Notes: generated by a model from the letters alone, not told the origin. A stretch of 29,269 nt of DNA from Chthonomonadales bacterium (GCA_038217285.1 JBBQPO010000041.1:1-29269), one strand, 5' to 3'. Numbered from the stretch's first letter, positions 3,997 through 12,222 are shown. Program-made: numbers and translations.

Positions 3997-5815
3997 CTAT
4001 CGGGGAGAGGGCAAGACAGCGCTCTCGGAAAGCCTGCCGGAACTGCCGAACCCTGCCCCTAACGTCGGCGCTTTCACAGCCTGCGCTATTTCGTTTTTAT
4101 CGCCGGGCTTCTCTGTCGGCCCTAATACATGCAGGGCGCCATCTGTGAAGAAGAGGAGACCATTGGAGAGGGCCAGGTTGCCGGGACGCGGCACATCCTG
4201 GGTCCAGACCTCTTTGCCCTCTTTCAGATCTACCGCCACCAGGCGATTGGCCTTGGTTCTCGCCACAGACCATACCGGCTCCCGAACTCCGTTACGTGTG
4301 GTGGAGATGCAGAAAACCAGATGTTCCGGGGTGGCGACGATCGAGGTAATCACATCCATCGGGCCGATCGGATATTTCCAGACTACCGTCCCCCCAATCC
4401 GATTCAGCGCGACAACCGTGTGGTTTACCTCGCCATAGATATTCTCCTTTGTCACCACCAGACCGCTGTTGCTCCAGTGCTGGAAAGGACTGGTGGAATA
4501 GGGCTGAAGCACGGGGACGGGAACCATCGCCGTACTATAACCTTTTAACTCTACCGGATACAGCTTCCTGCCATTGCGCGGATCGGTAACCGTCCTGTTT
4601 GCCGAACCATAGACAGGCACCTCAACGCTTCTGGGTGACAGGATCTGCTGGTACTGCTGGGGATCGGGCGCCGGATCTTTCGGCGCGTACATCCACTCGA
4701 GGTGACCGTTCTGCGGATCCAGCGCCACAATGCCGCTCACGCCTCCCGCACCGCCAAACCCGGTATAGAGAAAATGATCCCCCACCGCTGGAACGCCCAG
4801 AGAATGCATGATGTCCCGATGCCACTGTTGTTGTGTCTGCCCGGTGATTAACGCCAGGAAGCGATGGGTGGTCTCGTCAGCGACAACGAGGCCATTCTCG
4901 GCATAGGCGGGAGGATAACCGCCGAACCGCGCCGTCGGGCTGATGTCCCGATCAACATCAGGCAAAGGATGGTGAATTCGCGTCATGGTCCACTTGACTT
5001 CCGGCTCCCAGTGGAAGAGAAGATCCGAAGCGGACAGTGCAAACAGCGCATTGTTGACGATCAAGGGGTGCCCCAGATACTCCGGGACATTCAGCATTCA
5101 AGGCGGACATCCGGCCATCGTCGGTGGGACTGCGGCGACCTCCTTCCCGGCTTGGGTCTCCAGCAGCGAGACTCGGGGCAGCACCCCATTGGCTCCCATG
5201 GCCGCCATCGGAAAATAGGAGCCTTCCTTACCAGTCATGGCGTCGAAAGTCCGCACAGCAAAGCAATCAACGACGCTCGGAGCCATCGAGCACGGCAGTG
5301 AAGCTGACTGGGAAGAGATGGCGTCTATCAGGGCTTTGACCATCGGTCGATCCTTGATCGTCACCCAGTCATAGACGAAGACTCGCCCCGATTCGGTGAC
5401 AGCAGGACCGGAAATGTCAGAAATGGTGAAATTCAGACGTTCCGCTTGGAGCCGCTGCCGCCACTTTACGACTCCGGTCTTTGCGTCGGCGCAGATCAAA
5501 AAGCGCCAGTCCTTCTCGGAAGCGGTGAAGTAGATCAATCCGTTTCGGATGACGGAGTGGTAGAGCGGCCTGTGTTTGGCAGGCCCCGTGGTATTCCAGG
5601 TCCAGAGCTCTTTGAGTGGAAAATGCAGTTTGTCCTGGCTGACTGCCGAGTGAGTTGCGTCGTGCCGGAACTGAAGCCAATCGTCCCCGCGCGCGGGAGC
5701 GGACAGGTATTCGCGACGGAATCGGAGGCGAAAAAGGCCAATCGTCCCCGCGCGCGGGAGCGGACAGTACCGGCAGAAGAGAAAGTAGAGCCAAACCTAT
5801 AGAGACGCGAGCCAT
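3997..5815 (-). pseudogene. Exported PQQ-binding-like (BamB-type) beta-propeller gene, interrupted by a 61-bp frameshifting insertion and an in-frame TGA
   Basis: Signal peptide MARVSIGLALLSLLPVLSAPARG from ATG 5815 with a GAGG RBS. Removing 61 bp (5707-5767) gives ...ARGDDWLQFRHDATHSA...GLIYFTASEKDWRFLICADAKTGVVKW. That frame runs to TGA 5100-5098 and continues in frame through ORF 3997-5097. PQQ-repeat motifs: CADAKTGVVKW, ALDPQNGHLEW, ALNRIGGTVVW, AVDLKEGKEVW. Restored length is 585 codons including the TGA. Confidence 0.8.
5676..5767. repeat. Two identical 31-bp direct repeats separated by a 30-bp unique spacer (61-bp period); CRISPR-repeat-like mini-array inside a coding sequence
   Basis: GCCAATCGTCCCCGCGCGCGGGAGCGGACAG at 5676-5706 and 5737-5767. 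Spacer GTATTCGCGACGGAATCGGAGGCGAAAAAG at 5707-5736. The repeat contains the perfect palindrome CCCGCGCGCGGG. Confidence 0.9.
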
Positions 5816-5869
5816 ACCCGCCTCACTTTCCGGAGCGGCAGCACCCGAGAAGATTGCACCGCGCCCTAA

Positions 5870-5980
5870 TGACCAGTATACATCTTATAACTACCTACTT
5901 GAATATATGACTATTCATTCCCTTTATATGGTTCGGATTCTGTAATCAAGATATTATTTCGAAAGGCACATTTCTATAGA
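5870..5980. promoter_or_regulatory. AT-rich upstream region with an IHF-consensus match
   Basis: Visibly AT-rich relative to its flanks. AATCAAGATATTA at 5944-5956 matches the WATCAANNNNTTR consensus. Lies upstream of the beta-propeller gene. Confidence 0.4.
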
Positions 5981-6158
5981 GGCGGTAGACGCGGAAGTCC
6001 GAATCGATGGTAAAAATCTGAGTGACTCCCAGTGCCTCGGCGGCAACAAGGGAAGCGTCGGCCAGATCCATTGGAGTGTCTCTGTTGTGAACCGAATCAT
6101 CGGCATCTACCTGTGACAAACCCATTCCGCATTGCGACTGTGTTCAGGCGAGAATCGA

Positions 6159-11999: not shown

Positions 12000-12090
12000 T
12001 CTTTTCTCTCCTTTGTAGGCGCCAGGTGGCATTGGTAGTCCAGTTTGGTTCTGATGTTGCCTCGTCCGAAGGACGATCCGGCGGAGCCGC

Positions 12091-12218
12091 GTAGCGAGGG
12101 GTAACACCCCTTGAAAGTAGCGAGGGGTAACACCCCTTGAAAGTAGCGAGGGGTAACACCCCTTGAAAGTAGCGAGGGGTAACACCCCTTGAAAGTAGCG
12201 AGGGGTAACACCTCTTGA
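12091..12218 (+). repeat. Tandem array of a 26-bp GTAG-hairpin (REP-like) unit: four perfect copies and one partial variant copy
   Basis: Unit GTAGCGAGGGGTAACACCCCTTGAAA at 12091, 12117, 12143 and 12169. Fifth copy at 12195-12218 has one C>T change. Each unit is GTAG followed by the hairpin CGAGGGGT-AAC-ACCCCTTG. Confidence 0.95.
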
Positions 12219-12222
12219 TGAT

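What the first reader, a model, noticed from the sequence alone, without database searches (positions are those of the whole stretch)
5676..5767. Repeat-spacer-repeat insertion inside a gene: candidate natural off-target Cas1-Cas2 spacer integration (neo-CRISPR)
Seen: the 31 bp encoding LSAPARGDDW of the propeller signal peptide is duplicated exactly around a 30-bp sequence unrelated to the flanks. Deleting one repeat plus the spacer (61 bp) restores a clean ORF (ARG-DDWLQFRHDATH), so this is an insertion with a long target-site duplication and not simple slippage. The duplicated sequence is palindromic (ATCGTCCCCGCGCGCGGGAGC) and resembles type I-E repeats (ATC.TCCCCGC....GCGGGGA.CAC pattern). 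Known: type I-E adaptation expands arrays by 61 bp (28-bp duplication plus 33-bp spacer in E. coli), and Cas1-Cas2 can integrate at repeat-like off-target sites. Inference: a coding sequence that mimics the host repeat captured a spacer, knocking out the gene and creating a one-spacer array downstream of an AT-rich promoter. Caveat: the apparent split is 31+30, so 28+33 or 29+32 requires 2-3 coincidental junction matches. No cas gene is in this window.
Basis: partly seen in the sequence, partly recalled or inferred. Interest (0 to 1): 0.85.

Follow-up and report, generated by a model that had tools for sequence, protein, structure and literature searches.

The report
Misplaced CRISPR spacer breaks a gene
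A 61-base insertion that breaks a secreted-protein gene looks like a CRISPR memory enzyme pasting a spacer into the wrong place, and the same genome carries two more such scars, a kind of event rarely documented in nature.

Summary
Window 5676-5706 and 5737-5767 are an exact 31-nt direct repeat around 30 unrelated bases, spacing 61.

It is a real, recent insertion. Two relatives carry one copy and no insert. Contigs from three other sequencing runs also lack the 61 bp. An independent k=31 assembly of the probable source run contains repeat-insert-repeat with 0 mismatches.

The genome holds a complete type I-E system. Its array has a 28-nt repeat plus a mostly G 29th base, 33-nt spacers in 43 of 50, and a 61-bp period. 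The best register (duplication 5678-5705, spacer 5706-5738) matches the native repeat at 16 of 28 positions, corrected p about 0.005.

New here: the genome has two more 61-bp insertions, C137 (28+33) and C194 (29+32), each breaking a gene. Spacing 61 is the only enriched non-coding spacing.

Not supported: a working one-spacer array driven by a promoter. No protospacer or PAM was found.

Verdict: natural off-target Cas1-Cas2 spacer integration, a known kind. This scan has noted similar footprints on other DNA.

The parts
5676..5706 (+). Apparent repeat copy 1 (31 nt exact). Under the 28+33 model the duplicated target is 5678-5705.
   Evidence: exact 31-nt repeat; offset 2 gives 16 of 28 identity to the native I-E repeat, and the next base is G.
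5706..5738 (+). Inferred 33-nt spacer (GGTATTCGCGACGGAATCGGAGGCGAAAAAGGC). Its first base and last two bases happen to match the target flanks, so the visible unique insert is 5707-5736.
   Evidence: 33 nt, GC 0.58, starts with G, ends with C. Native spacers are 33 nt in 43 of 50 and G-first in 47 of 50. It is absent from relatives and skipped by contigs of runs X2 and X3.
5737..5767 (+). Apparent repeat copy 2 (31 nt exact). The duplicated target copy is 5739-5766.
   Evidence: The Logan contig of run X1 spans 5677-5766 with 0 mismatches (record 5).
5101..5815 (-). Disrupted gene: signal-peptide-bearing first ORF of a PQQ-like beta-propeller pair. ATG at 5813-5815. The frame is lost after ...SAPARGDDW because of the 61-bp insert.
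   Evidence: Weak PQQ_2 hit (E 0.0073, below cut-off). The intact 235-aa orthologous ORF is in G003.
3997..5097 (-). Downstream PQQ-propeller ORF, in the same frame and separated by TGA at 5098-5100 followed directly by ATG. The junction is conserved in G003, so it is not part of the damage.
   Evidence: PQQ_2 E 4.7e-10 and PQQ E 7.4e-07.

Best explanation
The 61 bp are the scar of one off-target spacer integration by the genome's own type I-E Cas1-Cas2 integrase. Inferred sequence of events:
1. The integrase held a 33-nt prespacer whose first base G comes from the PAM.
2. It attacked the two strands of ordinary coding DNA 28 bp apart, at a site that partly mimics the CRISPR repeat (window 5678-5705, + strand orientation).
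3. Gap repair duplicated the 28-bp target on both sides of the spacer, adding 61 bp.
4. Three junction bases of the spacer happen to equal the flanks, so the repeat looks 31 nt long and the insert 30 nt.

The consequence is a frameshift right after the signal peptide of a secreted PQQ-like propeller gene, that is, a knock-out. The same process hit at least two other genes in this genome (contigs C137 and C194).

Shown: the insertion, the empty alleles, the resident I-E system and its 28+33 geometry, the repeat-likeness of the targets, and the recurrence.
Inferred: that Cas1-Cas2 did it, the exact register, and the orientation.

The units are most likely inert scars and not working CRISPR arrays.
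For: (1) It is a real insertion. G003 (same genus, about 87-93% identity over the two aligned pieces) and G013 (another genus) have a single copy of the segment and no insert. Contigs of runs X2 and X3 from other studies join 5675 to 5737, skipping 61. One further contig in X3 and one in X4 pass from 5706 straight into sequence resembling the right flank. The X1 k=31 contig 5677-5766 has 0 mismatches at depth 6.9.

(2) A matching resident system exists. C74 carries Cas3, Cse1, Cse2, Cas7e, Cas5e, Cas6e, Cas1 and Cas2e, then an AT-rich leader and 51-52 repeats. The period is 61 in 43 of 50, 62 in 6 and 63 in 1. Spacers are 33, 34 or 35 nt in 43, 6 and 1 of 50, and G-first in 47 of 50. The other array (C73) has periods of 69-82.

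(3) The target is repeat-like. It matches at 16 of 28 positions in one register. The genome-wide fraction at 16 or more is 5.8e-4, about 0.005 after correcting for 8 registers. C137 and C194 each match at 14 of 28. The Fisher combined p is 1.8e-4. C1, C11, C15-G16, G20 and A26 are shared by the native repeat and all three targets.

(4) It recurs. C137:8394 is 28+33 and C194:9421 is 29+32, both at spacing 61. Spacing 61 is the only spacing with 3 non-tandem events among 81 tested. P of 2 or more further events at 61 is about 0.01. The three inserts are unrelated to each other and to the genome.

(5) The other two are gene disruptions as well. Removing 61 bp lengthens the frames to 355 and 897 aa. 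Four homologues read through the C137 junction. P0010 aligns at residues 297-789 and 796-892 to the two C194 ORFs.

(6) Cse1 was not found in any of the 4 other same-genus genomes, including G003, which has the empty site.

(7) Background. Cas1-Cas2 alone integrates outside arrays in vitro, IHF gives specificity, and the repeat's last G derives from the AAG PAM (review PMC10011333, passages). Off-target integrations were detected in E. coli over-producing Cas1-Cas2 (passages citing Nivala 2018).
Against: - No protospacer was found, so neither the spacer boundaries nor an AAG PAM are verified. The 30-mer and a 22-nt core give 0 hits in viral contigs. The 22-nt core hits 2 genome and 7 metagenome contigs, all one archaeal AAA-ATPase motif matching exactly 22 nt and no more. 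Nothing was found in phages, and plasmid matches are only at chance level (E 0.9). There is no source in the organism's own assembly.
- For the C41 event alone, the 31+30 appearance needs 3 coincidental junction bases, P about 0.04-0.06.
- About 7,200 genome positions are at least as repeat-like (16 of 28 or better), so similarity alone does not explain why this site was hit.
- The bases just upstream of the three targets (AAGC, TGAT, AACC, read) do not resemble the native leader end (ATGT).
- G-first is weak evidence, because the inserts are GC-rich and two of them would be G-first in either orientation.
- All three events and the cas locus come from one metagenome bin. C74 and C194 are mild tetranucleotide outliers (0.932 and 0.941, against a 5th percentile of 0.947).
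- X1 is probably the source sample, so its contigs are not independent reads.
- C137 and C194 have no empty-site allele on record. Neither locus was found in any of the 40 relatives searched.
Confidence: 0.87

Rival explanations
1. An undescribed, non-CRISPR insertion process adds a fixed-length unit (short filler plus a compensating target duplication). Its 61-bp unit coincides with the I-E period by chance.
For: No protospacer or PAM was found here.
Against: - The length equals the modal period of the resident I-E array, and the split is 28+33 exactly in C137.
- The targets are significantly repeat-like in the register set by the duplication.
- The fillers are not copies of the organism's own DNA, unlike what that note describes.
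- The relative with the empty site lacks the I-E system.
Confidence: 0.07
2. The insertion is an assembly or sequencing artefact, such as a mis-join at a repeated k-mer or a chimera.
For: The genome is a 459-contig metagenome bin. X1 is probably the same read set. Two strains co-occur at this locus in X1, seen as records 2 and 3 differing at 12 of 189 positions.
Against: - A second assembler (Logan, k=31) gives a 90-nt contig carrying both junctions with 0 mismatches. Its depth of 6.9 is similar to the flanks at 6.6-7.8.
- An artefact would not give three events of exactly 61 bp with unrelated fillers.
Confidence: 0.03
3. The unit arose by slippage or tandem duplication of native coding sequence followed by divergence. 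Alternatively, it is an ancestral element lost in relatives.
For: The GC-rich palindrome CCCGCGCGCGGG sits in the repeat and could stall replication.
Against: - The 30-nt filler matches nothing nearby or elsewhere in the genome.
- The two copies are 31 of 31 identical, while the filler shows no trace of similarity to the flanks.
- 61 is not a multiple of 3 and it breaks the frame.
- Two relatives from different genera and contigs of three other runs all have the short form, so the short form is ancestral.
Confidence: 0.02

Closest known systems
Non-canonical (off-target) spacer integration by type I-E Cas1-Cas2, 'neo-CRISPR' loci (Nivala, Shipman and Church 2018, Nat Microbiol 3:310). The paper itself was not held. 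It is known here from passages in citing papers and from recall.
   Same: A spacer-length insert is flanked by a repeat-length duplication of non-CRISPR chromosomal DNA. The geometry is type I-E (28 + 33 = 61). The target partly resembles the native repeat. A matching I-E system is resident.
   Different: - The E. coli events needed over-produced Cas1-Cas2 and were rare reads in a culture. Here three events sit in the consensus of a wild, uncultured population and each inactivates a gene.
- A citing paper says IHF-site-like motifs favour off-target sites in E. coli. Here no HU/IHF-family gene was detected and the upstream flanks do not resemble the leader.
- Natural cases in that paper were called 'circumstantial evidence ... 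in two other species' by a citing preprint.
Canonical type I-E CRISPR adaptation at the leader-proximal repeat (E. coli model; review PMC10011333, passages read)
   Same: A 28-bp repeat is duplicated and a 33-nt spacer is added. The spacer's first G derives from the PAM and appears as a 29th repeat base. The period is 61 bp.
   Different: The site is coding DNA with no leader. The 'repeat' matches at only 14-16 of 28 positions. Each site has a single unit that was never extended.
Mini or orphan CRISPR arrays (a repeat-spacer-repeat unit without adjacent cas genes). This comparison is from recall; no call addressed that literature.
   Same: One spacer sits between two direct repeats, far from cas genes.
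   Different: Here the repeats are host coding sequence with demonstrable empty alleles. They are not copies of a bona fide repeat. The hairpin needed by Cas6e is weak (C41) or absent (C137, C194).
Similar footprints noted earlier by this scan in other genomes (e1-4538044, e1-4538045, e1-2962822). These are unchecked AI notes.
   Same: Unique 32-33-nt inserts are flanked by fresh 28-bp duplications. Some split genes, and some genomes hold several.
   Different: In this case the resident I-E system, its repeat, its period and its spacer statistics could be read from the same genome. Empty alleles were seen both in relatives and in other sequencing runs.

Membership tests
Off-target type I-E Cas1-Cas2 spacer integration (neo-CRISPR unit) | The unit length equals the period of the resident array. 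| tested here: met
   The unit is 61 bp. The native period is 61 in 43 of 50 intervals.
Off-target type I-E Cas1-Cas2 spacer integration (neo-CRISPR unit) | The target duplication has repeat length (28 bp) and the insert has spacer length (33 nt). | tested here: inconclusive
   For the window event the visible split is 31+30. It fits 28+33 only with 3 junction matches (P about 0.04-0.06). The sister events are 28+33 exactly (C137) and 29+32 (C194).
Off-target type I-E Cas1-Cas2 spacer integration (neo-CRISPR unit) | Cas1 and Cas2 of the matching subtype are encoded in the same genome. | tested here: met
   C74 carries a 316-aa Cas1 ORF and the Cas2e domain, plus Cas3, Cse1, Cse2, Cas7e, Cas5e and Cas6e, next to the array. 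Caveat: they share only a metagenome bin, and the C74 tetranucleotide correlation is 0.932.
Off-target type I-E Cas1-Cas2 spacer integration (neo-CRISPR unit) | It is an insertion relative to an ancestral empty site. | tested here: met
   G003 and G013 have a single copy. X2 and X3 contigs skip the 61 bp, and one further contig each in X3 and X4 lacks the insert.
Off-target type I-E Cas1-Cas2 spacer integration (neo-CRISPR unit) | The target site resembles the native repeat. | tested here: met
   16 of 28 in the duplication-defined register, corrected p about 0.005. Across the three events the combined p is 1.8e-4. About 7,200 other genome positions score as well.
Off-target type I-E Cas1-Cas2 spacer integration (neo-CRISPR unit) | The insert derives from a protospacer with the system's PAM (AAG type). 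| tested here: inconclusive
   No protospacer was found in the organism's own genome, viral contigs, genome or metagenome contigs (22-nt core only), phages or plasmids. The first base of all 3 inferred spacers is G, but that is weak evidence in GC-rich DNA.
Off-target type I-E Cas1-Cas2 spacer integration (neo-CRISPR unit) | There is leader-like or IHF-site-like sequence upstream of the target. A citing paper reports this as favouring E. coli off-target sites. | tested here: not met
   The four bases upstream of the targets are AAGC, TGAT and AACC, against ATGT in the native leader (read). No PF00216 (HU/IHF) gene was detected in the genome. Only these short flanks were compared; no formal IHF-site scan was done.
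Functional CRISPR array | The repeats form the Cas6e hairpin, and the unit has a leader or promoter and is expressed. | tested here: not met
   The native repeat folds at -13.2 kcal/mol with a 7-bp stem. The C41 neo-repeat folds at -9.7 kcal/mol, and 36 of 200 shuffles do as well. C137 and C194 fold at -3.8 and -3.1 kcal/mol. No promoter-like site lies in 5300-6100. Expression was not testable because no RNA runs were laid.
Transposable element or MITE insertion with target-site duplication | Copies share an element sequence with terminal repeats, and the target-site duplication is short and fixed. | tested here: not met
   The three 33-nt inserts share no sequence with each other or with anything else in the genome. 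I recall no transposon family with a 28-bp duplication.

The most novel reading that the evidence does not exclude
This lineage runs a type I-E adaptation module without any HU/IHF-type specificity factor. As a result it suffers recurrent off-target integration as a genuine mutational process. The genome shows three gene knock-outs present in the assembled consensus of a 6.2-Mb genome. The three natural targets would then reveal the integrase's intrinsic target code: C1, C11, C15-G16, G20 and A26 of a 28-bp window. The window unit keeps a partial hairpin and could be a seed from which a new array might grow.
Probability: 0.3. Interest if true: 0.72.

Novelty: new member of a known kind. Interest (0 to 1): 0.62.

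Why it matters
Off-target spacer integration is well documented in vitro and in E. coli over-producing Cas1-Cas2. In the held literature, natural chromosomal cases are described only as circumstantial, and the term 'neo-CRISPR' occurs in a single held paper.

In this case the whole chain can be read from sequence:
- the resident I-E system and its exact geometry;
- three independent 61-bp scars;
- empty alleles in relatives and in other samples;
- three broken genes.

It shows that CRISPR adaptation has a real mutagenic cost in a wild population. It also provides natural target sites for studying what Cas1-Cas2 recognises without a leader, possibly in a host with no IHF or HU. It is raw material for the idea that new arrays can be born from ordinary DNA.

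It is not a new kind of system. This scan has already noted similar footprints in other genomes.

Tried and rejected
- **Protospacer searches, all negative or at chance level.**
  - Exact 30-mer in viral contigs: 0 hits.
  - 22-nt core in viral contigs: 0 hits.
  - 22-nt core in genome contigs: 2 hits. In metagenome contigs: 7 hits. All are one archaeal AAA-ATPase motif (AVATESEANF) that matches exactly 22 nt and nothing beyond, so it was rejected as the source.
  - Cores of the C137 and C194 inserts in viral contigs: 0 hits each.
  - blastn of the 33-mers: no phage match for the window insert. Plasmid matches for all three have E 0.9 only. The C137 and C194 inserts were not run against the phage collection.
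  - blastn-short against the organism's own genome: best partial matches are 14-20 nt. The 17-nt match on C218 lies in unrelated coding sequence and does not extend.
- **Empty alleles for C137 and C194.** Neither locus was found in any of the 40 relatives searched. Homologous proteins were used instead.
- **Older, diverged events.** A relaxed scan (at least 24 or 22 of 28 identical) found no further events at spacing 61 or 62. The four weak events at spacing 63 were not examined.
- **Minus-strand reading of the window unit.** Registers within the duplication give at most 12 of 28 identity to the native repeat.
- **The second CRISPR system as the source.** The C73 array has a 37-nt repeat and periods of 69-82, with Cas1-Cas2 on C56. 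It was rejected because the period does not fit.
- **In-frame TGA at 5098-5100 as a sign of pseudogene decay.** Rejected because G003 has the same junction.
- **Nivala et al. 2018.** The paper could not be read by DOI or by PMC id. Its details here come from citing passages and from recall.
- **Reads in X1.** Whether X1 also holds an empty allele could not be decided from the contigs.

Full report
**1. The observation**

Window 5676-5706 and 5737-5767 are identical 31-mers separated by 30 unrelated bases, with start-to-start spacing 61. The window is a whole contig (C41) of a 459-contig, 6.21-Mb, 60% GC assembly rated 95% complete. Neither the repeat nor the insert occurs anywhere else in it.

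On the minus strand the repeat encodes LSAPARGDDW at the end of a signal peptide. That ORF starts at ATG 5815 and loses its frame at the insert. Neighbouring genes are DUF1501 and PSCyt1/PSCyt2/PSD1 proteins. From recall, that pairing is typical of Planctomycetota.

**2. It is a true, recent insertion**

- A same-genus relative (G003, 87-93% identity over the two aligned pieces) and a relative from another genus (G013, about 73%) both have one copy of the segment and no insert.
- G003 shows the intact 235-aa ORF. It also has the same TGA-ATG junction to the downstream propeller ORF. The in-frame stop at 5098-5100 is therefore conserved and is not decay.
- Contigs were laid from four public runs.
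  - In X1, the probable source, a 90-nt k=31 contig covers 5677-5766 with 0 mismatches. Its depth of 6.9 is similar to the flanks.
  - In X2 and X3, from other studies, contigs of related populations join 5675 to 5737, skipping exactly 61 bp. They show 6 differences in 179 nt and 17 in 316 nt.
  - One further contig in X3 and one in X4 leave the first repeat copy straight into sequence that, by my count, matches the right flank at 25 of 30 and 26 of 29 positions.
- The two copies are 31 of 31 identical, so the event is young.

**3. The resident system**

C74 carries Cas3, Cse1, Cse2, Cas7e, Cas5e, Cas6e, Cas1 and Cas2e. These are followed by an AT-rich leader and 51-52 repeats.

In the transcribed orientation the repeat is CTATTCCCCGCAGACGCGGGGGTGAACC, plus a 29th base that is G in 48 of 51 copies. 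Periods are 61 in 43 intervals, 62 in 6 and 63 in 1. Spacers are 33 nt in 43 of 50, G-first in 47 of 50, and have mean GC 0.58. This is the E. coli-type 28+33 geometry with a PAM-derived G (review passage).

A second array (C73, 37-nt repeat) has periods of 69-82 and cannot account for a 61-bp unit.

**4. Register and repeat-likeness**

There are 8 possible 28-nt registers within the 31-mer, counting both strands. One stands out: + strand, 5678-5705, with 16 of 28 identity to the native repeat and G as the next base. Genome-wide, 5.8e-4 of positions reach 16 of 28, so the corrected p is about 0.005.

The model is therefore a duplication at 5678-5705 and 5739-5766, with the spacer at 5706-5738 (33 nt). 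Three junction bases match the flanks by chance, P about 0.04-0.06.

**5. Two more events**

I scanned the genome for short-range direct repeats. It found C137:8394 (28-nt repeat, 33-nt filler) and C194:9421 (29+32), both at spacing exactly 61.

Across spacings 40-120, spacing 61 has 3 non-tandem events. Each other spacing has 0-2, 12 events in all, mostly at multiples of 3 as expected for coding repeats. The Poisson P of 2 or more further events at spacing 61 is about 0.01.

In the orientation that best matches the native repeat, each of the two is 14 of 28 identical. The three sites combined give p = 1.8e-4. C1, C11, C15-G16, G20 and A26 are invariant among the native repeat and the three targets.

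The three 33-nt inserts are unrelated to each other. All start with G and end with C.

Both extra events also break genes:
- Removing 61 bp gives frames of 355 and 897 aa.
- Four homologues (P0002-P0005) run continuously through the C137 junction, in a gene with a weak, below-cut-off Exo_endo_phos (EEP) match.
- P0010 (903 aa) aligns at residues 297-789 to the upstream ORF of C194 and at 796-892 to the downstream ORF.

**6. Context for mechanism**

- Cse1 was found in none of the 4 other same-genus genomes, including G003. It was found in 5 of 24 genomes of other genera in the same family and in 3 of 14 of a sister family. The system is patchy, and the insertion is seen only where the system is.
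- No HU/IHF-family gene (PF00216) was detected in this genome. The same search rings in 9 of 14 control genomes.
- In E. coli, IHF is the specificity factor, and Cas1-Cas2 alone integrates outside arrays in vitro.
- The start of the abstract of a 2026 paper (PMC13769266; search listing only) names IHF as promoting leader-proximal integration in the E. coli type I-E system. Its title assigns a similar fidelity role to HU in a type III-A system.
- A link between the missing factor and off-target integration here is inference.

**7. What is not supported**

- No protospacer or PAM was found.
- The upstream flanks are not leader-like.
- No promoter-like site lies near the unit.
- The native repeat folds into a 7-bp hairpin at -13.2 kcal/mol. 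The C41 neo-repeat folds at -9.7 kcal/mol, no better than shuffles. The other two barely fold.
- These are scars, not demonstrably working arrays.

**8. Caveats**

- Everything comes from one metagenome bin, with 0.88% estimated contamination.
- C74 and C194 are mild compositional outliers.
- X1 is not independent of the assembly.
- The exact register and orientation are inferred.
- Nivala et al. 2018 could not be read. Supplements were not consulted.

**9. Verdict**

This is a natural off-target type I-E spacer integration, confidence about 0.87. It is one of three in this genome, and each knocked out a gene. It is a new member of a known kind. Earlier notes of this scan report similar 28+33 footprints in other genomes and none on this genome.

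Noticed in passing
G000 contig C137:8394-8482 (L021:1495-1583): A second 61-bp unit: an exact 28-nt duplication (GTTACAGCCCGTCGCGCGCAGAGTGATG) around a 33-nt insert. It frameshifts a gene with a weak, below-cut-off Exo_endo_phos match. Four homologues read straight through the junction.
   Followed up: yes
G000 contig C194:9421-9510 (L022:1522-1611): A third 61-bp unit: a 29-nt duplication plus a 32-nt insert. It frameshifts the C-terminal part of an approximately 900-aa protein with no Pfam match. Homologue P0010 is continuous across the site. C194 is a mild tetranucleotide outlier (0.941).
   Followed up: yes
window 5095-5100 (minus strand): The two PQQ-like propeller ORFs are in the same frame, separated only by TGA followed directly by ATG (...GCPP*MLNVPEY...). 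The identical junction is present in relative G003. This could be two genes, a split propeller, or read-through or recoding; it is undecided.
   Followed up: partly
window 5477-5665, run X1: Two variants co-occur in the probable source sample: records 2 and 3, 189 nt each, differing at 12 positions, with depths 6.9 and 7.6. A second strain is therefore present. Whether it carries the insert could not be told from contigs.
   Followed up: no
G000 contigs C73:1-1415 and C56:23776-25039: A second CRISPR system. The array has a 37-nt repeat ending ...ATTGAAAC, 19 copies and periods of 69-82. A separate strong Cas1 with an adjacent small downstream ORF (not scanned against Pfam; possibly Cas2) lies at a contig end. 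The subtype was not determined.
   Followed up: partly
whole genome G000: No HU/IHF-family (PF00216) gene was detected in a 95%-complete assembly. The same search rings in 9 of 14 control genomes.
   Followed up: partly
window 5711-5732: A 22-nt stretch of the insert is identical to the Walker-region codons (AVATESEANF) of an AAA ATPase in two archaeal genome contigs and seven metagenome contigs. Identity stops exactly at 22 nt. It is probably chance or convergent codons, not the protospacer.
   Followed up: yes
window about 12090-12220: A direct repeat of about 51 nt at spacing 78 lies inside the window. The spacing is a multiple of 3, so it is probably a coding tandem repeat. It was not examined.
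   Followed up: no
G000 contigs C50:1 and C340:1: Direct repeats of 38-47 nt at spacing 82 lie right at contig starts. They may be assembly-edge effects. They were not examined.
   Followed up: no
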